DNA of 63,818 nucleotides, counting the filler, from Barthelona sp. PAP020 (taxonomy: Eukaryota): assembly GCA_040182905.1 (NCBI GenBank). It is 3 parts of 3 records of this genome, joined end to end, with 100 filler letters (N's around TTAATTAATTAA, not from the genome) between each part and the next. Parts side by side here need not be neighbours in the genome. Positions count along the whole stretch, not along the records: positions 42,681 to 63,818 come from JARQWU010000185.1; 2 more parts are not named here. One strand, 5' to 3'. Of the stretch, positions 27,615 through 63,818 are shown one piece after another. How positions within the stretch are numbered: position 1 is the stretch's first letter; every line of letters starts with the position of its first letter. Both the position numbers and the translations under genes were made by a program. The notes below the pieces were generated by a model that did not search any database, had not been told where the DNA came from, and saw only the letters and a program-made list of their open reading frames with translations.

Positions 27615-30600
27615 TTAGTATGATTCGAAAATCCAACGACCTTCACGTTCATACTCTTCAATGCGATTTGAAGCTGAAGTCTCATCAAAATCACCATAAA
27701 TTGTCAAAGCTTTCACAACTGCTGTTCTGATATTACTTGGTATTCTGCCAGCAGGACCACAATACAAAAATGAACCAGCATCATTTTCCATTACGTCAAA
27801 TAGGATTTTTGGGTTTTCAATCATTCTATCTGTAATATACACCTTCTTTTTAGGGTTTTCACGAGAAAAAGCATAAAAAACAGTAATTATTCCATTTTCC
27901 TCCCAACTTTTCCATTCGTCAGCCAGAAGGAAATCTTTGTTTGAATAACGACATCCCAAAAACAAATACATTTGTCCAATATTCTCTTGTGGTTTTGCTT
28001 GTACCCTTAGTATTTCTTTATCTTGGGCAAAACCTCGAAAAGGAGCTATCCCCGTACCAAGACCACATGCAATAAACGGTTTCGTTTTATCTAAAGGTGG
28101 AACTAAAGGAGATTCACGAATAAATATGGGAACAAGTACTTCCCCACCATATGGTTCCACTTCTTCCAACCAACCAGTTGCTAACCCAGTGACAATTTTT
28201 CCAGACTTCGTCTTGTGTGAAACGATACCAATCAAAAGTTCCAAACATTGTGGATGCATGAGATTAGACGAAGCAATGGAATAAAGTCGAGGTGTAATTA
28301 AAGGTATCATTTCAACCAAATAGTGTAACGGTGGACGACATGATGGATATCGGATTAAAACATCAAGAAAATTAGTTCCAAACATTATCCTGTCTTCAGC
28401 TAATTTATCAGATCCCGCCTTTGAACCCAAAAATGCTAACTCTTCCCGTTCTTGCAAATTTGTAGCAAATGGCGCTAATTTTTTATAATAATCTCGACCA
28501 GCCAGACTATAAAAATCCAAGTAAAAAGTGGCTAATTGTCTCACAGTCATTGGCTTGGATAATGCCTCAATTTCACAAGTAGCACCAATAGGCTCAACAA
28601 CAAAAGTTACATCTGGGTCTGATCCATACCATGTCAAAAACATTTCCACTCTTTCTTTTTTATTTCCTGGCCAAATTCCTACATGCCAGCCAGTCTTATA
28701 TTTAATACCAGTTCCATGCAAATCCAATGTGATAAACCGTGAATCTTGCTCATAATCAATTGGAGTAATTCTCCTGTTTTCTATCATACGAACAAAAGTA
28801 CAACCTGGAGGTGGCGGTCCTCGAGGATCAGAAATTGGAGCAGTAAGAACACATCTATACTGAGGATTAGGTATTCCAAGAGGAATTCCCTCTTCAACAC
28901 CCAATATTTCCATGAATGAATCTGCAAAAGGTTGAAACGCAACATCAAAACCTTGAATGTGCTTTTCATCAGCAATACCTCGATCAAGTATTGGTGAAGC
29001 CCCTTTAGATAACATAACATCCCAAAACATTGCACCTGCTTTGTTGAAATTCTCACCATAAGCAGAAGAACCTATTCCAAACACTGCAAAGTTCACTCCT
29101 TTTAAAACATCATCATCTAATACATTAATGGACTCATAGAACTCAATACCCATGGGAGGTATATCACCCATACCATACGTACAAGTCATTAAAACAACAT
29201 TCAAATACTTTTTAAGCTCAATAGCGGTAATAGTATCCATTGGTTTCAAAACTGTATTGGCACCTCCAGAAGATAGTTTTTGTGCCAATGATTTTGCAAA
29301 ACCCGTGGTATTTCCAGTTACAGTCGCATATGTAATCAAAATTGAATCGCTATCAACTTCAGAAGAATAACCTGTAAAGGTTGTGGAATGTTTGGTAAAT
29401 GAAGATGATCTATCGGTGTAAGTGGTGTGTAATGCATGATGGGCCTTTTCACTACCCGGTTTTCCCAACCATTCGGTATATATAGCTTGAACTTCCAAGT
29501 TTTTATGTGAAACGCGAATTTTCGAGAATTCATCAATCTTATAAATAGCTTCAGAACGTTTCTTCAAAATGTTGTTATCCAAAGACTTCGATTGACCTCC
29601 TCCTCCAATACATCCTCCAGGACAGGCCATCACTTCAATAAAATGAAACATTTCACCAATTTCTTCAATTGCATGACGTTTCAATAACTTTTGGGCAGAA
29701 GTAATTCCTCCACAAATAGCCACTTTGATTTCTATATTTATCCCATCCTTCAAAGTCAATGGGATATTGGCGAACCTAATACCATAATAACCACGACATT
29801 GTTGAAGTTTAACATTATTGAGTTCTTCTCCAGTCAAAAAATAATAAGCGGTCCTCAATGCAGCCTCCATAACACCTCCGGATGCACCAAAAATTACTCC
29901 CGCACCAGAAGATTCACCCAAAGTTGAATCAAAGGATTTTTTGAAGTTATTCAACTTTCCAAGATCAATATTCTGGGTTCTTAACATCTTTCCTAATTCC
30001 CTTGTGGTAAGTACACAATCGATATCATACATATGATTCTGAGATAATTCAACTCGTTTACATTCCTGTTTCTTTGCAGTACAGGGCATAATTGCAACAG
30101 AAAAGATGTTTTCTGGTTTAATATTCATTTTATCAGCCCAATAAGTCTTAATAATGGTACCAAGCATTCCCATTGGTGATTTGCATGTAGATAAATATGG
30201 TATTAAATCAGGACGACGTTTTTCAACAAAGTTAATCCAAGATGGACAGCAAGAGGTAAACAAGGGCAAAGGAGCAGCTTTGTCTTTTGGATCAACAATA
30301 TTGTCTGTGATCCGTTGGATCAACTCAGTGGCTTCTTCCATAATGGTCAAATCCGCTGTTAAATTGGTATCAAACACATAATTAAAGCCTAAGGCACGGA
30401 GACTTTGAACCAAAAGATCAGTGTTAATTTCACCTGGAAGTTGCCCCAATTCTTCCCCTATAGTAACACGTACAGCTGGCGCTGTTTGCACCACAACAAC
30501 TTTTCTGGAACTCATTGCTTCATACACTTTGTCAATATCATCAACAACAGAAATAGCACCTACAGGACAATACGAAGCACACTGTCCGCATGCAATACAA

Positions 30601-31220
30601 GCTAGATCATCAAGGCTTTCTCCACCTTTTAATCCCACAATACAACGTTCTCCAAGTTCATCAATCTCAGTTTTCATTTGTAATATGTTCATACTTTGCA
30701 TGTCATTACATGCTCGAACACAACGTGTGCAACCAACACAAAGAGAAGTATCAATACGAATAGCGCCATTGTTATCTTGATTCACATCTCCCCAATTTAG
30801 CAAAGCATCGAATTCATTATTGACAACGCTTTCATTTGAACGATGACGAGTATTATTTTGCATTTTCCTTAAAGCTTCTGTTGCAGCTAAACGAACTTTG
30901 GGTGTGTTTGTATGAATACGCATTCCTTCTTTTATTGCAGAACAACAAGAAAGAAACAATTCCTTTTCTCCTTCAACTTCAACAACGCATACACGACATC
31001 GCCCAGCAGGCTTTAATTTAGGATGATGACATAAGGCCGGAACAAAATTTCCAGTTAAATGACAAGCTTCATATATGGATAAAGCAATTGGAACTTCAAA
31101 ATCGTTACCATTAATATTAATAACTATCTTTTCACCATCAATATCATCAACAACATTTCGAACCGTTGATGCACTGCTAATTGCTCTATTGGAATATCTT
31201 TTTTGAGCCAAATATGACAT
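27615..31220 (-). CDS. hydA: [FeFe]-hydrogenase fused to flavodoxin and FAD/NADPH reductase domains (HydA-CPR/CysJ-type fusion)
   Basis: 2Fe-2S (LCHH..GRCRVC..SC); 2x4Fe-4S (CVGCTRCVRAC, CIACGQCASYCP); H-cluster L1 TSCCPSW, L2 MPCTAKKQE, L3 EVMACPGGCIGGGGQ; flavodoxin YATVTGNT; FNR motifs RLYSIASS, GTGIAPFRGF, GCR, FSRE..KVY, terminal aromatic Y. Confidence 0.96.
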   Translation of the reverse strand: MSYLAQKRYSNRAISSASTVRNVVDDIDGEKIVININGNDFEVPIALSIYEACHLTGNFVPALCHHPKLKPAGRCRVCVVEVEGEKELFLSCCSAIKEGMRIHTNTPKVRLAATEALRKMQNNTRHRSNESVVNNEFDALLNWGDVNQDNNGAIRIDTSLCVGCTRCVRACNDMQSMNILQMKTEIDELGERCIVGLKGGESLDDLACIACGQCASYCPVGAISVVDDIDKVYEAMSSRKVVVVQTAPAVRVTIGEELGQLPGEINTDLLVQSLRALGFNYVFDTNLTADLTIMEEATELIQRITDNIVDPKDKAAPLPLFTSCCPSWINFVEKRRPDLIPYLSTCKSPMGMLGTIIKTYWADKMNIKPENIFSVAIMPCTAKKQECKRVELSQNHMYDIDCVLTTRELGKMLRTQNIDLGKLNNFKKSFDSTLGESSGAGVIFGASGGVMEAALRTAYYFLTGEELNNVKLQQCRGYYGIRFANIPLTLKDGINIEIKVAICGGITSAQKLLKRHAIEEIGEMFHFIEVMACPGGCIGGGGQSKSLDNNILKKRSEAIYKIDEFSKIRVSHKNLEVQAIYTEWLGKPGSEKAHHALHTTYTDRSSSFTKHSTTFTGYSSEVDSDSILITYATVTGNTTGFAKSLAQKLSSGGANTVLKPMDTITAIELKKYLNVVLMTCTYGMGDIPPMGIEFYESINVLDDDVLKGVNFAVFGIGSSAYGENFNKAGAMFWDVMLSKGASPILDRGIADEKHIQGFDVAFQPFADSFMEILGVEEGIPLGIPNPQYRCVLTAPISDPRGPPPPGCTFVRMIENRRITPIDYEQDSRFITLDLHGTGIKYKTGWHVGIWPGNKKERVEMFLTWYGSDPDVTFVVEPIGATCEIEALSKPMTVRQLATFYLDFYSLAGRDYYKKLAPFATNLQEREELAFLGSKAGSDKLAEDRIMFGTNFLDVLIRYPSCRPPLHYLVEMIPLITPRLYSIASSNLMHPQCLELLIGIVSHKTKSGKIVTGLATGWLEEVEPYGGEVLVPIFIRESPLVPPLDKTKPFIACGLGTGIAPFRGFAQDKEILRVQAKPQENIGQMYLFLGCRYSNKDFLLADEWKSWEENGIITVFYAFSRENPKKKVYITDRMIENPKILFDVMENDAGSFLYCGPAGRIPSNIRTAVVKALTIYGDFDETSASNRIEEYEREGRWIFESY

Positions 31221-33827: not shown

Positions 33828-34140
33828 TTAACCGGAGCGGAAAAGGAGGAAAGCAAGTTGTCCAATGTAGAAATAAATGAAATTGTTAGTTTCGTGAGTG
33901 ATGTAAGAACCAAAAGCACGACCAACAATGCAATGCCATGTAGGATCATATTTTCTATCGAAGTCACGTTTAATATGACCAGCAATATCCTTTTCAATAG
34001 TATACTTGGAGATAGCAACGTTAGCAGTATCAATGGCATCTTGTTGCATGTCTTCAGACATATCGGCGTTTTTAACTTCAAGTTAGAATAACCAAACAAT
34101 TAATAATAATAATACTTATAGCTTTGTGTTGTGTTGACAT
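33828..34140 (-). CDS. DYNLL: Dynein light chain LC8 (exons 34140-34116 and 34075-33828)
   Basis: After removal of a 40-nt intron: [24 protein letters not shown]...[18 protein letters not shown]...LLFRSG. Confidence 0.95.
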
Positions 34141-34502
34141 TTTAAATAATTGTTAATATATCAAATGAAAAAAGTCCAATAAGATATTCAAATTCAAAAA
34201 ATCGAATTCGAGATGCCTTTCGACTTTTTGTTAGAAATTTCAATTTCACCAATAAAACCAAATTAAAATAAATTTAATTGCATATTTTAGAAGGTTATTT
34301 AAAATTTATGACCAAATTGAAAAGAAATTTATGATTGTTTAACAAACTTAATCTTTCTTTTTTCATCTGATTTATCAGATAAAAAGATAATTGAAGGATC
34401 AGACCATACATCAAATGGTTAATGTAATGCAAAATAAATAAAATTAAATAATCATTTATTGTGTTGTTCTTTGTTTAATCTTCTCTACTAATCTCTTTAT
34501 AT

Positions 34503-41874: not shown

Positions 41875-42348
41875 TAAATAACCCCCATTTTTTATTCGTC
41901 ATTTTTGAAAATTTTTTTCATTTGTTTTATTAAGACTGTTGATTAAGTTGTGAAAGGTCTATTTATTTTACAAAAGAATGGACATTGAAAACTTATTCAA
42001 AAAAAATTTTTTGGGCACTCAGGACGGGTTTGAAATTTAAATTTGTCGCTTAAGTATAAAAAATTGAAAATTTTCTTGTCTACTTGTTGTTGTGTTTGAT
42101 AATAATAAAATTAAAAATTGGTCCAGTTGTGAAACAACTATATTTATTTACAAAGAAAGTAAACTCAGAAAACTCATTCAAGCAAATTTCAATCAAAATC
42201 CTGGGGGGAATTGAGGGACTGAAATGTAATTTGAACGATCAAATAGGAGAATTTCGAAGAAATTCGTCATTCCAATTCTTTTGTATTTTTGCAAAAGCAA
42301 AATTTTAAAGTTTAAACTTTACCTTAGAAAATCTAAAGTTTTTCAACA

Positions 42349-42580
42349 GATCAATCGGGCCTTAAAAGCCTTTAACCAAGTGAACACTATTCTTTTTATT
42401 AGATATTTATGAGGTATGAGTTGTTCAGTGAACAACGAAACGAGTTAGCTTAAGGTTTGGGGAAAACTCACGTGGATTCACATGCCCAAGTAACTTAAAA
42501 AATTGGACCTAAAGGTGGTCAAGAAACAACAAATAAACGAAGTGATATTTGATGACCTCTTTATATCTCCAATAAATTCC
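42349..42580 (+). ncRNA. Candidate structured RNA (U3 snoRNA-like), truncated by gap
   Basis: Long-range stem 42395-42415/42555-42576 closes an ATGA/TTGATGA kink-turn-like motif. GATCAATCGGG is complementary to the conserved SSU rRNA 5' end. Confidence 0.35.
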
Positions 42581-47685: not shown

Positions 47686-49740
47686 TTAATATTTTTTGCG
47701 TTTTGCAAATTTAGCTAATTGTTTTTCCCTCAATGACATCTTTCTAATTTTTTTGAATCTTCGGGAATGACGCAACATCTGAATGTTCTTTCCTCTGCTC
47801 TTTTCTTTGTTGGTAGAAACTGCAGTTGATCTCAACGATTTCTTTTTAGCCAAACCATACAACTGTTTCTCACCTCTTCCAGCCCTCATATGTGCGATTC
47901 TTTCTTCTTTGCTTTGTTTCTTCTTGAAACCATCAAGAAGAGCATCTGGATTAAGGAACAGTCCTTCATCATCAGATTGAACTTGAATTTCATCATCATT
48001 GTCTTCCATTTCTTCCTCTTCCTCTTCTACTTCTACTTCTTCAACGTCTTCATCATCTTCCATTTCATTTTCATCATCATCTTCTTCTTCTTCCTCATAT
48101 TCTTCTTGATCTTCGATTTCTTCATCTTCTTCCTTTTCGTCCACATCATCAATAATAGGAACAAGAGGATCTCGTTTAACGTCATTGGCTACAAGACCTG
48201 GAGGAATATGACTTCTGGTCGAGTATTCTTCATTTGCTAATTCTTCCTCAAGTTCTTCCTGTTCACGTATTGCTTCATCATCAGTGATGAAATCTTTACC
48301 AATAAACCCACCAGAGAAAAGCTCATCATCATCTTCAATCTTTCGGGCATTTCCTCTGAATTTAGGGGTTAACAAATCAGGATTAACTTCACGATAAAGA
48401 TTAATGATACCCTTAGCAGCGTTTGCAACAGGACGAGATTGTTTAAAACGAACAAACAAACACAAATCTTCCAAAATAGATGCATCAATAGCTGTGGGGC
48501 ACCTTGCACATATTCCTCTGATTGTGTTCAATCCAAGAACGATTTGTTCTGGTTCATTGGACTCAAGAACAAATTTATCACGAACAGCATACACAAGTTC
48601 TTCAGCAATATTCTCAGGAGTACTATCAATAATAGACTGAATAATAAAAGTCAATATCTTTGTAATTTCGGGATTGCTGGGTATAATATATCTTTGGGCA
48701 ATAGAGTAAAACTTTGGAATCGGTATTTGCTCCAAATAGATTATTCGAGAGACCAAATTCAAAATTCTTAATTTGACATGGAATTTAAAACCACCAGAAT
48801 GAAAGTTTTTAAGCAAATTATCACAAAATTTGCCAGGATTAATGATTTGTTGCATAGCAAGGAAGTTTGATCCTCCAACCTTGACACCTCCTTCCAATTG
48901 TCTTTGTAAACGTTTCAATTTACTCTTTTGTCGTTGGACTTCTCTAAGATGTTTAGATTTATTTAACATACCCCCACGATTTTTGTTCATTTTCACAAAC
49001 TCTGCAGCGGTTTTCATATTTTCAACCATACTCTCCTCAGCTTCATCATCATAGTCATGAACAGCATCATCCAAAAAAAAATCAAGAGAAGGAACAACTA
49101 ATTGAGTGTCGTTACGAAGTGCTCCGTACGCAATCATGTTCACAATACGATCTGTTTGCCAAATATGAGTCTGATAGCATTTTATCAAGGTCAATAAAGC
49201 CATACGAGCAACTTTAACATTAGACGATTTGAGAGAAGCAAAAAGCAAGTCTTGGAGGTGGGTCTTAATATGTTTGGAAACTCGAGACTTGTGAAGTCTT
49301 TTGATATCATTATAAATGAAAGAAGATATCAAAGTACGTAATCTTTTGTCCTCATTAGTAAGCATACGCAAGAAAATCTTATGAACCTGAATAGGGGCTA
49401 ATTGATCATGTGTTCGCAATAAAATAACAGTTTTTGTCAAAGCCAATCGTAATTCGTTATCTAAACCATGAAATTCCATCTCTAATATGTTTAAAACATC
49501 ATTAGAAAAGTTACAACCAGTAATTTCAAATTCAACACCTTTTTTTTTCACTTTTGTGTAGTAATGACAGGTTGCACCCATAAAACTTAATAATTCAAAT
49601 AAAGCTTCTTTTCGCACATTGGGATTTTGTCTGACCAAATCAATTAATGATTTAAAATGTTCATATTGTTGAAAAAAATCATCACGGTGTGCTTCTGGAT
49701 TACGTTTGATCGAATTTTGCAAAGTATCAAGGGTTGGCAT
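47686..49740 (-). CDS. SDA1: Pre-60S ribosome biogenesis factor SDA1
   Basis: LDTLQNSIKRNPEAHRDDFFQQYEHF, GLNTIRGICARCP, AAKGIINLYREVNPDLL..KFRG, STNKEKSRGKN. Confidence 0.92.
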   Translation of the reverse strand: MPTLDTLQNSIKRNPEAHRDDFFQQYEHFKSLIDLVRQNPNVRKEALFELLSFMGATCHYYTKVKKKGVEFEITGCNFSNDVLNILEMEFHGLDNELRLALTKTVILLRTHDQLAPIQVHKIFLRMLTNEDKRLRTLISSFIYNDIKRLHKSRVSKHIKTHLQDLLFASLKSSNVKVARMALLTLIKCYQTHIWQTDRIVNMIAYGALRNDTQLVVPSLDFFLDDAVHDYDDEAEESMVENMKTAAEFVKMNKNRGGMLNKSKHLREVQRQKSKLKRLQRQLEGGVKVGGSNFLAMQQIINPGKFCDNLLKNFHSGGFKFHVKLRILNLVSRIIYLEQIPIPKFYSIAQRYIIPSNPEITKILTFIIQSIIDSTPENIAEELVYAVRDKFVLESNEPEQIVLGLNTIRGICARCPTAIDASILEDLCLFVRFKQSRPVANAAKGIINLYREVNPDLLTPKFRGNARKIEDDDELFSGGFIGKDFITDDEAIREQEELEEELANEEYSTRSHIPPGLVANDVKRDPLVPIIDDVDEKEEDEEIEDQEEYEEEEEDDDENEMEDDEDVEEVEVEEEEEEMEDNDDEIQVQSDDEGLFLNPDALLDGFKKKQSKEERIAHMRAGRGEKQLYGLAKKKSLRSTAVSTNKEKSRGKNIQMLRHSRRFKKIRKMSLREKQLAKFAKRKKY

Positions 49741-49777
49741 GATGATAAAAATAATAAAAACTCACTTTTACAAATTT

Positions 49778-50359
49778 ATGAATTATTCTCCAAATCCATT
49801 AATACAAGTAGGTGTAATCCATTCTAGTGATGGTTCATGTTATTTGGAAATGGGAGGATCCCAAGTTTGTGTTTCTGTTTATGGTCCTCATCCAAATACA
49901 TTTTCTTCTAGTCCTATTTTGTCATATAATCTTCAAATTAAAAACTCTCCATTTGAAACGAATGATTGTGAACAATTTTTAACTCCGATCAAAGGCATTT
50001 TAGATGGCTTGATCAAGGAGAACATACTATTGAATTCTGAATTGACTATTTTGTTTGATGTTATCAAAACAGATAAAAATATATTTGCAGCTTTAACTAC
50101 GGCATTATCAATAGCGTTGTATGATTCTAAAATTGAACAAAATGACATATTAACAAGTTGTTATGTTGAAGATAGTGAAGGTAGAGGTTTGAATATATGC
50201 TATTTACAAAATAATGATTCAATATTATTTTGCAAAATGGAAAGTGATTCAAGCAGTTTAATAGAGTTGAAAGAATTAATGTGTCATTCAATATCATATT
50301 GTAAAAAACTTTATCCAATATATTCTGAACAATTAGAGGAGTTAACTGCAAATACATAA
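49778..50359 (+). CDS. RNA exosome RNase PH-fold subunit (Rrp41/Mtr3/Rrp46 class)
   Basis: GVIHSSDGSCYLEMGGSQVCVSVYGP and AALTTALSIALYDSKI; ATG at 49778 avoids overlap with SDA1. Confidence 0.78.
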   Translation: MNYSPNPLIQVGVIHSSDGSCYLEMGGSQVCVSVYGPHPNTFSSSPILSYNLQIKNSPFETNDCEQFLTPIKGILDGLIKENILLNSELTILFDVIKTDKNIFAALTTALSIALYDSKIEQNDILTSCYVEDSEGRGLNICYLQNNDSILFCKMESDSSSLIELKELMCHSISYCKKLYPIYSEQLEELTANT

Positions 50360-50402
50360 ATTATTTGTTCTTTTTTAACATTTGTTGTTTTAATATTTTT
50401 TA

Positions 50403-52070
50403 ATGTCGAGTCAATATCGAACGAGTGTTATTCCTTGGATTGATTGGGAGGAATGGAACACGATATACCAATCTCTGAGTTTCTCAACAACATCAAAATC
50501 CATAAATGAAGATGGTTCAAGGATATTAAGGCTTTGGGAAATACGCAAGGGATGTCCTCCTGTTATTGAAGCTAGTACACATTTATTTTCTTCACCTTTA
50601 AATGAGAATGAAAAGGAAAGTTTACAATATCGATTATACATGAGTGCTGCATGCGTTAGATTAGTTAATTCATTCGCTACTTCATTACGAAAGAATGGTG
50701 AAACGGGTAGTATTATGGATATTAGTATTAGAGCCGGTATACCATCATATTTTGTTGATTTTCGTCATCAAATTAGTCATCAAGCAATCCCCTCTGTATC
50801 AGCATTAAAATTGTTTCAATCTGATGCCATTAATTTAATATACAAGAATTATTGGAAAACTCAAAATATACACCTGTTAAAGAAGTTTAAGATTGTTACA
50901 AACCATGCCAAGAATATTTTAAAACGATTGTACAAAAATTTATCGGTTGATCAACACATGAACAAGTTGATTGAAATTTTGACTCCCAATTTCTATGCCA
51001 GTGTTGTTTGTCCGGTTATTTTGTCTTTTTGTTTGAAAGTTTCATGCAAAAGACGGTTGGCTATTATACTCAGAAGGTTCTTATCTTTTCTTCAACCTGC
51101 TTTGTCTACATGTCAGGGAACATTAGCGTTATATCTATGTGATAGTTATATTCCGGTTGATGATGAACAACAAAAGGAAATTGCAAACAAAAAAAATTTG
51201 CAATTATTAAAATTTTTGCTACTTGAGCACATTTGCAATTCTAACATTCCAGATAACGGGTTGCCATATTTACCGTTATGTTCTTGTCAAAAGTGTGACA
51301 CTGCTCCTTTGGATAGAAAAGACAAAAGATACAAATATATTCCTAAAAGAGCCACATTATCCAAATATGCAGAACCTGCTCTTTCATTGCTATTTTACCG
51401 ACCTTGTCAAGATACTTTTTGGTTGCTGAATCGACTTCCTCTTGAGGATCCCATTTATGTTTCCAGATTGACACTGTTGAGCATATTAGAAGAAAAACAC
51501 CAAATTAATTTGTTGCTTTCAAGTGAAAAGACAAATGGAAAGAACATTGGAAAGAATAGGATTGTTGAAGAAGAGCAAATAGCTTCTGATGATGCGAATA
51601 GTGTGTCTGAAGAAGAAGATAGTTCTGATGAAGACAGTTTTACCAATGATTTGAGTGACCAAGAAGAAAAAAAAGAAGAGGAAGAAGAGGAAGAAGAGAA
51701 TCAGGAGAAAGAATTGGAGGAAGAAAGAATTGATTTTGCTATCAACGAAATAAACCCAAATATATCAGATAAAGACAGAAGTTGGCATGTTATCAAGCTT
51801 CCATCTTATTTACCATGGGGAGTTTCATCGGCACAAGAATTAGTCAAAGATTTCAGAGATTTTGGAATCAAAACAAGTACAAAGGAAACAAATAATGCAG
51901 AATATTCAGATTCAGATGAAGAGTTTGAGTCAAATACTGACATGGAGGAAACTATCATGTCAAATGACATAAATGATGATTATCACAGCGATTGGATGAA
52001 TCCAAACTGTTTTGACACACTATTTTCAGATGGATTTTTCGCTAATGTGTTGTGTAATGGTTATCAATGA
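50403..52070 (+). CDS. LAS1: LAS1 HEPN endoribonuclease (ITS2 C2 cleavage)
   Basis: VIPWIDWEEW, WEIRKGCPPVIEAS, RLYMSAACVRLVN, GIPSYFVDFRHQISHQAIPS (HEPN RxxxxH intact). Confidence 0.9.
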   Translation: MSSQYRTSVIPWIDWEEWNTIYQSLSFSTTSKSINEDGSRILRLWEIRKGCPPVIEASTHLFSSPLNENEKESLQYRLYMSAACVRLVNSFATSLRKNGETGSIMDISIRAGIPSYFVDFRHQISHQAIPSVSALKLFQSDAINLIYKNYWKTQNIHLLKKFKIVTNHAKNILKRLYKNLSVDQHMNKLIEILTPNFYASVVCPVILSFCLKVSCKRRLAIILRRFLSFLQPALSTCQGTLALYLCDSYIPVDDEQQKEIANKKNLQLLKFLLLEHICNSNIPDNGLPYLPLCSCQKCDTAPLDRKDKRYKYIPKRATLSKYAEPALSLLFYRPCQDTFWLLNRLPLEDPIYVSRLTLLSILEEKHQINLLLSSEKTNGKNIGKNRIVEEEQIASDDANSVSEEEDSSDEDSFTNDLSDQEEKKEEEEEEEENQEKELEEERIDFAINEINPNISDKDRSWHVIKLPSYLPWGVSSAQELVKDFRDFGIKTSTKETNNAEYSDSDEEFESNTDMEETIMSNDINDDYHSDWMNPNCFDTLFSDGFFANVLCNGYQ

Positions 52071-52429
52071 ATTATTCAACAGAATTATATTTCACCCTAG
52101 CAAAGCTGACGGATTTCACTTGAAAGAGAATATAAATGTGTTTAAGGTTTCTTCTTACAATTTGTAATTTTAATGGGTATTAAAATTGAAAAGCTCATGT
52201 AATAACACTGGAATTGTAAGAATTGTAAGAATTTGGATACAACTATACAGAAACAAGTCAACAAAGAATATCAAAATCCTACAAAGAGAACATAAGTGGA
52301 GACATTAAAGTGAATCAAGGGGCTAAAGGAAAGTATTACACTTTTCTTTAAATACCTGCCCAATCTAAACCGGAAGCATTTCTTTTTTTTTTTAAGAGTG
52401 TTCTGAAACATCCACGCAAAACGACTCAG

Positions 52430-52844
52430 TTGCAAATACCCCCCTACTCTAACCGAGAACAATAAAGATCTTTTGAGCTGGTACAGCGAAATTTTCAACA
52501 TCTGAACATATCCAACTCGTACAAGTTTCAATATTTGCACGGAAGGAAAGTAACAGTTTACACCAGAGCTCCATCAAAGTGGAAGGGAAATTTGGCAAGT
52601 CGTAAAGGTTTCAAAAGTTTCAATTTATTTACATTTTAATTTGTTGTTGTAATAGTCCGGTTTCGCAAAATTTTTTAATTTTTTTAATGTTATTTAATAT
52701 AAGAGGGAAAGAAAGATCACACTGCTAACATCTCAACCACAACCCCCCACACCTAAGAGTTGGATATAAACTGTTCAGAATTTATTGTTGAAATTGCCCT
52801 TTCGTAACGTGAATTTTTAAATATTGATTAAATTTAATTTGCAA
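52430..52844 (-). ncRNA. Candidate large structured non-coding RNA of unknown class
   Basis: 26 consecutive nt (52493-52518) pair with 52757-52793 across two bulges. Nested G-U-containing helices form only on the minus strand. No credible ORF. Confidence 0.4.
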
Positions 52845-52881
52845 AGACTCGATCCTTTTACCCGCGAAACAAAATAGAAAA

Positions 52882-52955
52882 CACCGGTACTGGGACTCGA
52901 ACCCAGAATCCTCAGATTAGAAGTCTAATACCCTATCCAATTAGGCTATACCGGC
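52882..52955 (-). tRNA. trnR-UCU: tRNA-Arg (anticodon UCU), intronless
   Basis: GCCGGTA/TACCGGT acceptor stem, D loop with GG and A20, anticodon arm TTAGA-CTTCTAA-TCTGA, T arm CTGGG-TTCGAGT-CCCAG, followed by T-runs. Confidence 0.96.
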
Positions 52956-53396: not shown

Positions 53397-54944
53397 ATGT
53401 CATTCCACTCAAAGTTTGCTAATTTATGGAATATTAATTTTTCCATTTTTGTTGTTGGAGAAGCATTATCTTCCTTGGGAGATATGTTTTCTGTTGTCGC
53501 TTTACCATTAGTTGTATTAATGTTAAATAACAATGCGATGATATTAAGTTTTGTTTTGGCTTTTTTGGGGATTCCTCGTTTATTAGTGATGTTATTTGGT
53601 GGCGGAAATATTGGAGATTACTTTGGACCCAGAAAAATTATTATTTTTGCCAATGGTGTTCGATGTGTTATTACTTTTGCTTTTGTTTTTTGCATGTTTT
53701 TTAAAATTTTAAATTTAATGATAATTTGTGGGTATTGCATTATATATGGGATGATGAGTGCCTTGTTTTTAACATCATCGTCTTCTATGACGCCATTCTT
53801 AAGTATTCCAGAAAATTATAGTTCTGCAAATACAATCTCTAACATGCTGTTGGGGTTAACGGTTATGCTAGGTCCCTTATTAGGAGCTCTTATTATTGGT
53901 CAAGATGATAGAAGCAATAATGTGGATTTTGGAGTTCTTATTTGGTGCTTTTTGATAGATGCAATCACCTTCAGTTTTTCAGTTGTTTCTTGTTTCATAA
54001 TTGATGTGTTGACAAAGGAGCAAATTGAAGAATTGAAAGTGCTTTTTGATGGTAAAGACAAAGAGGTTGAAATACCTATTGACGAGGACATTGGAGTTTC
54101 AGGTATGGAATCAGTAAATGAAGATGTTGATGTTGATCTTTGCGTCTCCTCTGATAAAGAGAATACGGACAAGGAAATTTCTCATGATGATGTTGATATA
54201 AAGATATTTGAGGACCAGAACAAAACATCTGAGATTGTAAATGATCAAAATAGTACATCAGATATAACAGAGGATCATAACAAGATATTCAACCAATTTC
54301 TTTTGTTGAAATCAAATTCTGCACTTTCCTTCATCATCTTGACGGAGCTCATTTACAATTTATGCTTCATGGGTGTAATATATGTTGCTTTACCATATTA
54401 TTCTGAAAATATTTGGAGGTCTTCATCTTCATATCCATATATTATGGCAGTATTTGGTGGTTTCAGTATGGTTGGATCTTTCCTAGCATCTGTTTTGCCA
54501 CTGCTAAATCAATTTTGGCTAGGAAAAATCGTTATTTTATTTTGCTCTATTTCTGCCATTTTAATCATAGTTTTTTCATTCGTTCTTGAAAAATGGTGGG
54601 TTGTTATGATATTATATGGTATTTGTGCCTGTATTTATGGTGTTGAACATATTAATGTTTTAGTCTGGATTCAATTCATTACTCCCCCTTCACAATTGGC
54701 TATTACAATGAACTTATTTTATTTGGTTTCAACTGGTATCATTCCTATCAGTGATTTGCTTGTTGGTTTATTGTTGAAAGTTAATCATGGTATTGCTTTT
54801 GCAGGTACATTGTTGTTTTTCCCCTTTATATTATGCTTTTTTCACAAAGGTTTTAAAGAAATAGGGTTATCTAATGAACAAATTGAACGTTTAAAGGAAC
54901 AGAAAAAAAAAAAGGATGAAAAAGCTGTTGAAGAAAACAATTAA
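53397..54944 (+). CDS. MFS transporter (DHA3/MFS_3-like) with an acidic central loop
   Basis: NFSIFVVGEALSSLGD..SVVALP, GDYFGPRKI (motif A), LGPLLGALI, FLIDAITF; about 12 TM segments. Confidence 0.85.
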   Translation: MSFHSKFANLWNINFSIFVVGEALSSLGDMFSVVALPLVVLMLNNNAMILSFVLAFLGIPRLLVMLFGGGNIGDYFGPRKIIIFANGVRCVITFAFVFCMFFKILNLMIICGYCIIYGMMSALFLTSSSSMTPFLSIPENYSSANTISNMLLGLTVMLGPLLGALIIGQDDRSNNVDFGVLIWCFLIDAITFSFSVVSCFIIDVLTKEQIEELKVLFDGKDKEVEIPIDEDIGVSGMESVNEDVDVDLCVSSDKENTDKEISHDDVDIKIFEDQNKTSEIVNDQNSTSDITEDHNKIFNQFLLLKSNSALSFIILTELIYNLCFMGVIYVALPYYSENIWRSSSSYPYIMAVFGGFSMVGSFLASVLPLLNQFWLGKIVILFCSISAILIIVFSFVLEKWWVVMILYGICACIYGVEHINVLVWIQFITPPSQLAITMNLFYLVSTGIIPISDLLVGLLLKVNHGIAFAGTLLFFPFILCFFHKGFKEIGLSNEQIERLKEQKKKKDEKAVEENN

Positions 54945-63521: not shown

Positions 63522-63686
63522 AATTTTTCTATTTCCCAAATGTTTTTTTTGTTTTACTGACTTTAAAAAGTTTCTCATTGTTACTGAACAAAATTTTTGC
63601 CCTATTCAAATTGGAAACTCCATTCTTTTCTCATTCAGAAGGTTCTTGCCCTACATCACAAGTGTTCGTAGCAAAGCGGACAGATT

Positions 63687-63818
63687 TCACCCAAAAGACA
63701 AAATAAACATTGTTCTAGGTTCTATTCTTGCACTTCTGATTGTTAAATATGATCCAATACATATACAATAATTTATAATAAGAATAAGAACGTTACACAA
63801 GCTGTAAGTATAGTAAAA
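63687..63818 (-). CDS. Possible 3' end of a membrane-protein gene running off the window
   Basis: Open hydrophobic frame FYYTYSLCNVLILIINYCICIG...SFG* from the window edge. Confidence 0.3.
   Translation of the reverse strand, partial: FYYTYSLCNVLILIINYCICIGSYLTIRSARIEPRTMFILSFG

What the first reader, a model, noticed from the sequence alone, without database searches (positions are those of the whole stretch)
52430..52844. Unannotated ~400-nt element with extensive long-range pairing immediately downstream of tRNA-Arg
This is the longest ORF-free stretch in a very dense contig. Seen: TTTCAACA-TCTGAACA-TATCCAACTC (52493-52518) is the exact complement of GAGTTGGATA (52757-66), TGTTCAGA (52772-79) and TGTTGAAA (52786-93), giving 26 bp with 5- and 6-nt one-sided bulges. 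An outer TTGCAAAT/ATTTGCAA pair lies at 52430-37/52837-44. Nested inner helices GTGTGGGGGG/CCTTCCGTGC and TAGCAGT/ACTGTTA form only on the minus strand via G-U pairs, the same strand as the tRNA ~40 nt upstream. The core holds U-rich and A-rich tracts. Inference: a structured ncRNA (divergent telomerase, RNase P/MRP or SRP RNA, or a new class), possibly tRNA-linked. I found no canonical CUAACCCU template, P4 motif or SRP helix-8 motif.
Basis: partly seen in the sequence, partly recalled or inferred. Interest (0 to 1): 0.7.

Follow-up and report, generated by a model that had tools for sequence, protein, structure and literature searches.

The report
Candidate non-coding RNA beside protist tRNA
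Next to a tRNA gene in a compact anaerobic protist genome lies a roughly 450-base non-coding stretch whose two ends are complementary over 26 bases; it is likely a non-coding RNA gene, but it matches no known RNA family, and its strand, expression and job are untested.

Summary
The pairings are there as described. The 26-bp bulged arm is the best chain of perfect helices in the window. It beats local shuffles (0-3 of 1000) but only partly beats window-wide ones (1 of 150 to 11 of 30). Whole-element folding energy is no better than shuffles (z +0.5 and +0.15). The stretch is non-coding and GC-raised (33% vs 22%), in a barthelonid metamonad. It also holds a duplicated 30-nt module and a B-box-like T-arm. 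Rfam, P/MRP, SRP, snRNA, template and pseudoknot tests found nothing. No relatives, reads or genome were available. Best reading: one non-coding RNA gene, probably on the plus strand, acting as a protein-bound scaffold (0.4). Telomerase RNA is the boldest reading (0.1). Rivals: decayed duplication or mobile relic, long UTR with chance pairing, tRNA-linked Pol III RNA.

The parts
52415..52437 (.). left arm of outer closing helix (core 52430-52437, weaker extension to 52415)
   Evidence: core pair probability 0.84 plus, 0.89 minus when 52410-52870 is folded; lost in longer spans
52486..52518 (.). left, contiguous arm of the long bulged helix (26 WC pairs from 52493; 6 more from 52486 on plus)
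   Evidence: 32-pair duplex, -33.8 kcal/mol on plus
52519..52756 (.). 238-nt enclosed region, less structured than its shuffles; purine-rich then U-rich then C/A-rich on plus
   Evidence: z +2.16/+2.33; no pseudoknot above chance
52519..52540 (.). small hairpin next to the long helix
   Evidence: probability 0.76-0.96 plus, 0.84-0.90 minus
52638..52669 (.). copy 1 of a ~30-nt duplicated module followed by a U-rich tract
   Evidence: 0 of 200 block shuffles; 24 of 32 columns identical, 0 of 1000
52757..52805 (.). right arm of the long helix with bulges of 5, 6 and 6 nt
52779..52808 (.). copy 2 of the duplicated module, 141 nt from copy 1, overlapping the right arm
52837..52866 (.). right arm of outer closing helix
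52842..52858 (-). B-box consensus match (GWTCRANNC at 52854-52846) in a 4-bp T-arm-like hairpin, 27 nt after the tRNA
   Evidence: 28 consensus matches in the window, this one and the tRNA's own are the only two with a stem of 4 or more; chance in the first 100 nt 1.5%
52871..52881 (-). two T4 runs directly after the tRNA, likely its Pol III terminator
   Evidence: function inferred
52882..52955 (-). tRNA-Arg(TCT), intact
   Evidence: 63.9 bits
52383..52393 (+). T11 run upstream of the element on plus (A11 downstream on minus)
   Evidence: T-runs are typical of sense-strand gene flanks here
50403..52070 (+). Las1-like gene, left neighbour
   Evidence: PF04031, E 5e-28
53397..54944 (+). MFS transporter gene, right neighbour beyond the tRNA
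   Evidence: PF07690

Best explanation
The non-coding stretch 52415-52870 is likely a single non-coding RNA gene, probably read on the plus strand by RNA polymerase II, whose transcript would be closed by a short terminal helix and a 26-32-bp bulged arm and would hold a loose 238-nt loop open for proteins. It would work as a flexible ribonucleoprotein scaffold, the way telomerase RNA cores and some snRNAs do, and not as a compact ribozyme or SRP RNA. Shown: the pairing, the non-coding character, the raised GC, the duplicated module. Inferred: transcription, strand, polymerase, protein binding, and any function.
For: Non-coding: frame asymmetry 3.8-9.2 in 12 of 12 windows, below the CDS 10th percentile of 14.0 (n=109) and the gap median of 9.9 (n=50); no Pfam hit under E 0.1 for 12 of 12 open frames; no homolog of the longest frame. 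Not ordinary spacer: GC 32.8% vs 21.8% in 4813 nt of 18 other gaps, and no A5 run in 811 nt vs 62 in those gaps. Arm better than local chance. Plus strand: the arm keeps probability 0.92-0.99 in 4 of 4 spans folded on plus but forms in only 2 of 4 on minus; the fourth segment forms only on plus; T-runs without A-runs are the sense-strand pattern here (T8+ in 10 of 28 3' flanks, A8+ in 0 of 28). Rfam models are reported to miss most Spironucleus snRNAs (PMC6679479 section 10), so the Rfam blank is weak evidence against an RNA in this lineage.
Against: Folding energy equals shuffles. The arm is ordinary by alignment score, and is reached in 11 of 30 loose window-wide shuffles. All 26 pairs are Watson-Crick and strand-neutral, as in DNA inverted repeats; no covariation data exist. 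The duplicated module is as significant as the helix and overlaps it, which suits a decayed duplication. The B-box and the absence of T5 on minus favour the other strand. No defining feature of any known RNA class was found. A second long, GC-raised non-coding gap exists at 41875-42580, so such gaps are not unique.
Confidence: 0.4

Rival explanations
1. Decayed duplication or mobile-element relic parked downstream of a tRNA gene; the arm and the repeated module would be leftovers of inversion and duplication events, with no RNA function.
For: Duplicated 30-nt module at 141-nt spacing; arms differ only by insertions; a dispersed 65-nt repeat lies in the same gap; A11 closes the stretch on the tRNA strand; retrotransposons target the region downstream of tRNA genes in compact dictyostelid genomes (PMC5006619, passages).
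Against: No target-site duplication longer than a 6-mer; no second copy of the arm or module in the 64-kb window; no transposase or RT remnant (best hit E 0.12); a related barthelonid genome is 4.5% repetitive (PMC11316075 section 6).
Confidence: 0.2
2. Long 3' UTR or read-through zone of Las1 on the plus strand; the arm would be a chance or minor UTR fold and the tRNA gene would stop the polymerase.
For: T-run bias matches sense-strand 3' flanks; MFE at shuffle level; arm reached by 5 of 76 windows in duplex energy.
Against: GC is 11 points above other gaps, which include UTRs; other gaps between convergent genes are mostly 45-290 nt; arm and module both beat local shuffles.
Confidence: 0.2
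3. Minus-strand Pol III RNA linked to the tRNA: made by read-through of, or re-initiation behind, tRNA-Arg and released by tRNA 3' processing.
For: No T5 on minus for 1434 nt, second longest such stretch in the window; B-box/T-arm match 27 nt after the tRNA; precedent of RUF70 and tRNA-5S dicistrons in Yarrowia (PMC2566860, passages).
Against: Two T4 runs directly after the tRNA, three more inside the element, no T5 terminator after it; no A-box placed for the B-box; inner helices absent; A5 is also scarce in plus-strand 3' flanks (11 in 2090 nt).
Confidence: 0.13
4. A spliced unit: a small gene or intron-containing RNA with 43-44-nt introns at 52660-52703 and 52804-52846, or one long intron folded back by the arm as in Giardia, Spironucleus and Trichomonas.
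For: Both AT-rich tracts start with GT, end in AAG, carry TTAAT 10 and 13 nt from the end and match the 40-45-nt size of three introns seen in the window; long introns of these relatives fold to bring splice sites together (PMC6679479, passages).
Against: The three introns seen have CTAA(T/C), not TTAAT; the 8 candidate introns gave no spliced ATG frame of 55 aa or more; no coding signal.
Confidence: 0.07

Closest known systems
Telomerase RNA template/pseudoknot core
   Same: A long-range helix closing a loosely folded core; U-rich then purine-rich tracts on plus; size (recalled) in range; little primary-sequence conservation, so Rfam can miss it.
   Different: No pseudoknot above chance and no template beyond chance; no match to TTAGGG or TAGGG templates; best match to the Barthelona PCE repeat is 6 of 10, reached in 68% of shuffles.
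Giardia GlsR28 and other unassigned fornicate ncRNAs (PMC3510501)
   Same: Intergenic, structured, not assignable to a class, in the sister lineage.
   Different: The Giardia 12-nt 3' processing motif is absent from the gap; sequences were not compared; GlsR28 has expression data, this has none.
tRNA-linked Pol III RNAs (Yarrowia RUF70, tRNA-5S; PMC2566860)
   Same: Lies just 3' of a tRNA gene on its strand with no T5 between.
   Different: T4 runs directly follow the tRNA; about 450 nt, not 70-120; no T-tract end.
tRNA-targeted retroelements (Dictyostelium TRE3, Skipper-2; PMC5006619)
   Same: Position downstream of a tRNA gene in a compact genome; A-run at the far end.
   Different: No ORF remnant, LTR, target-site duplication or second copy found.
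U4 snRNA (resemblance recalled from memory)
   Same: On plus, 52704-52808 reads UGCUAA, a C-rich strand, a small hairpin and an Sm-like U-rich site in U4 order.
   Different: No Rfam U4 match on that stretch, no kink-turn by eye, Sm-like site is interrupted, U6 partner unknown.

Membership tests
Telomerase RNA | template of about 1.5 telomere repeats, single-stranded | tested here: inconclusive
   The host's repeat is unknown. 26 template-like strings vs 24.7 in shuffles; no TTAGGG/TAGGG template; 6 of 10 at best to the PCE repeat.
Telomerase RNA | pseudoknot 3' of the template | tested here: not met
   Best H-type candidate matched or beaten by 57 of 60 (plus) and 59 of 60 (minus) shuffles; crude search, single sequence.
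Telomerase RNA | helix closing the template/pseudoknot core, and template boundary element (PMC8287931 passages) | tested here: inconclusive
   A closing arm and an adjacent hairpin exist, but without a template their role cannot be assigned.
Telomerase RNA | binds TERT and templates repeats | not testable with these tools
   needs experiment
RNase P / MRP RNA | P4 pseudoknot with CR-I and CR-V | tested here: not met
   No P4-like pair on either strand with a relaxed, recalled pattern; no Rfam match. Giardia and Trichomonas P/MRP keep these regions (PMC3228867 passages).
SRP RNA | helix 8 symmetric loop with GNRA tetraloop | tested here: not met
   Recalled pattern absent on both strands; no Rfam match.
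Spliceosomal snRNA (U1, U2, U4, U5, U6) | ACAGAGA, GUAGUA, ACUUAC, U5 loop in a stem, canonical Sm site, U4 kink-turn | tested here: not met
   ACAGAG, GTAGTA absent; ATACCTG (52352) and CCTTTTAC (52854) occur without their structural context; no canonical Sm site inside the element; Rfam blank. Caveat: fornicate snRNAs are very divergent.
Box C/D snoRNA, U3 | box C (RUGAUGA) paired with box D | tested here: not met
   No box C on either strand.
MITE / foldback / SINE | target-site duplication and many dispersed copies | tested here: inconclusive
   No TSD beyond a 6-mer and single copy in 64 kb; whole genome not held.
Dicistronic tRNA-ncRNA | no terminator after the tRNA, T-tract after the second RNA | tested here: not met
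   T4 directly after the tRNA, no T5 after the element; whether T4 terminates in this organism is untested.
Protein-coding gene | codon-phase signal, ATG frame, homologs | tested here: not met

The most novel reading that the evidence does not exclude
This is the telomerase RNA of a barthelonid, the first from Metamonada that I could find. On the plus strand the order is closing arm, boundary hairpin (52519-52540), 13-nt template (52554-52566, predicting the 10-nt repeat GGTGTAAACT), U-rich and purine-rich tracts, closing arm. It would explain how this genus came to odd 10-nt telomeres. A new RNP-scaffold class with a duplicated protein-binding module is the alternative bold reading.
Probability: 0.1. 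Interest if true: 0.8.

Novelty: new variant of a known kind. Interest (0 to 1): 0.38.

Why it matters
Housekeeping RNAs of metamonads are so divergent that profile searches miss them, and I found no metamonad telomerase RNA in the papers searched (PMC10999387 section 6; PMC12133305 term search). A barthelonid has a 10-nt telomere repeat whose significance its describers call unknown (PMC11316075). A real RNA here would give an entry point to these RNAs, and the template reading is testable in minutes on existing genomic reads. If it is a relic or a UTR, it matters little.

Tried and rejected
No whole genome held. No sequencing run was listed, which is no evidence on expression. Metagenome scan with an 18-mer gave 26 loci; 26 of 26 match over 18-20 nt only and none encodes a neighbour gene, so chance. 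Las1 relatives: none in genome or viral contigs. Two-arm pattern: 0 in viral contigs. Phage blastn: 5 records at E 0.8. Rfam: only the tRNA above threshold in 8 searches. Earlier findings: 5 look-ups, nothing (the first on the genome). Bacterial promoter/terminator scan at chance and not apt. Relaxed ARAGORN gave only implausible intron-spanning calls. Rejected readings: RNase P/MRP, SRP, U3/C-D snoRNA, U1/U2/U5/U6, SECIS (by eye), coding micro-gene, a 210-nt minus-strand RNA ending at the first T4 (z +0.23). My notebook gives 9 of 30 for the loose window-wide test; the correct count is 11 of 30. Supplements of PMC11316075 were searched for five terms; one scanned file could not be read and might bear on telomeres.

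Full report
Host and setting. The window is a gene-dense, 30% GC eukaryotic contig with an iron hydrogenase-flavodoxin-reductase fusion. A window phosphatase is 100% identical to one EukProt protein and 57% or less to the other 119 listed. Cluster members of the Las1-like protein are labelled Barthelona sp. PAP020, a metamonad genus sister to Fornicata (PMC11316075, passages and section 6). Three introns of 40-45 nt with CTAA(T/C) 11-13 nt from the end were picked by eye from 34 candidates. The element lies between Las1 (plus, ends 52070) and tRNA-Arg (minus, 52882-52955).

The observation. The 26 pairs, both bulges and the outer 8-bp pair are as stated. A fourth 6-bp segment after another 6-nt bulge on the same arm is possible on plus only. 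How far the arm exceeds chance depends on the measure, and the favourable measure was designed after seeing it. Chain of perfect helices: rank 1 in the window, 0 of 2000 and 5 of 2000 local shuffles, 11 of 30 window-wide; strict version 1 of 150; 50-nt block shuffles 2, 3 and 0 of 1000. Gapped alignment score: 61 of 300, 25 of 200, 34 of 200. Duplex energy: 5 of 76 windows as good. Whole-element MFE: 66 and 55 of 100 shuffles fold as well; the arm-bounded span gives 2 of 60 (minus) and 7 of 60 (plus), the interior 60 of 60. The two inner helices have probability 0.0. So the arm is probably real, and the rest is loose.

It is not coding and not ordinary spacer. Frame asymmetry is below the CDS 10th percentile in 12 of 12 windows. 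Twelve open frames have no Pfam hit under E 0.1, the longest has no homolog, two ATG frames are not in the protein collection, and 8 candidate introns give no spliced frame of 55 aa. GC is 32.8% against 21.8% in 18 other gaps, and the 811-nt stretch has no A5 run on plus against 62 in 4813 nt.

A 30-nt module occurs twice, 141 nt apart (52638-52669, 52779-52808), each followed by a U-rich tract; 0 of 200 block shuffles and 0 of 1000 pairwise shuffles reach it, the flanks do not align, and no third copy is in the window. Copy 2 overlaps the right arm; the copy 1 region pairs with the left arm far less well (-11.3 vs -33.8 kcal/mol). A B-box consensus (definition in PMC2566860) sits 27 nt after the tRNA in a T-arm-like hairpin. 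Two AT-rich tracts of 43-44 nt look like weak introns.

Strand. For plus: the arm is stable in 4 of 4 spans (2 of 4 on minus), the fourth segment, and the T-run bias of sense-strand flanks. For minus: no T5 for 1434 nt, the B-box, and a better outer extension. Against tRNA read-through: T4 twice at the tRNA end, three times inside, no T5 at the far end. I lean to plus; it is not settled.

Known classes. Rfam gave only the tRNA above threshold in 8 searches. That is weak evidence in this lineage, since even custom models found only U2 among Spironucleus snRNAs (PMC6679479 section 10). Motif tests, with patterns recalled from memory, found no P4, SRP helix 8, box C, ACAGAGA or GUAGUA. Giardia and Trichomonas P/MRP RNAs are about 190-250 nt and keep CR-I and CR-V (PMC3228867 passages). 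For telomerase RNA, template-like strings and pseudoknots are at chance level, and the host's telomere repeat is not given in PMC11316075. A U4-like order of motifs at 52704-52808 is a recalled resemblance that Rfam did not support. No family membership is claimed.

Mechanism. The anatomy, a firm closing arm around a loose loop with a repeated short module, fits an RNA that is held together at its ends and bound by proteins in the middle. I put this at 0.4, a relic at 0.2, a Las1 UTR with chance pairing at 0.2, a tRNA-linked Pol III RNA at 0.13 and a spliced unit at 0.07. Everything past the sequence pattern is inferred: no genome, reads or homologous locus was available.

Papers seen. PMC11316075: passages, section 6, supplement term search. 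PMC10999387: passages and section 6. PMC3510501: passages and section 14. PMC6679479: passages and section 10. PMC3228867, PMC13184271, PMC8287931, PMC12133305, PMC5006619, PMC2566860: passages only. Searches listed nothing on barthelonid non-coding RNAs or a metamonad telomerase RNA; the library lacks most subscription papers.

Verdict. A real but modest long-range arm in an unexplained non-coding gap of a very compact genome. Worth a cheap check on existing reads, but not yet a discovery. Interest 0.38.

Noticed in passing
window 52098-52162 and 63669-63735 (both plus): A 65-nt dispersed repeat, 76% identical (E 7e-6), the only intergenic repeat in the window, with sharp ends. Both copies begin with a Pol III A-box match; the second has a B-box-like stretch 49 nt on. 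Likely decayed tRNA-like units or a short SINE. No shared fold, no match in genome or viral contigs.
   Followed up: partly
window 41875-42580: A second long, GC-raised, non-coding gap between convergent genes, with many small hairpins; 42090-42580 folds better than 30 of 30 shuffles on minus (z -2.7). No Rfam hit under E 2.8. A better-folding ncRNA candidate than the present element.
   Followed up: partly
window 52145-52230 and 52315-52365: Two local hairpins in the same gap that beat 100 of 100 shuffles (z -2.5 to -3.7, picked after a scan); with T11 behind them they could be another plus-strand RNA, though the whole 52098-52391 span gives only z -1.3.
   Followed up: partly
window 34150-34502 (minus): AT-rich gap upstream of the dynein light chain gene folds better than 30 of 30 shuffles (z -3.6).
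   Followed up: no
window 47686-52070: Three ribosome-biogenesis genes side by side: SDA1, an RNase PH exosome subunit and Las1.
   Followed up: no
window 27615-31220 (minus): [FeFe]-hydrogenase fused to flavodoxin, FAD- and NAD-binding domains.
   Followed up: no
P0123 vs window 52040-52070: A transcript-derived Las1 isoform ends in five residues not encoded anywhere in the window: misassembly, distant exon or trans-splicing.
   Followed up: partly
window 33850-34140 (minus): Unlisted dynein light chain-like gene (identified by eye) with a 40-nt intron at 34115-34076 fills the second-longest gap.
   Followed up: partly
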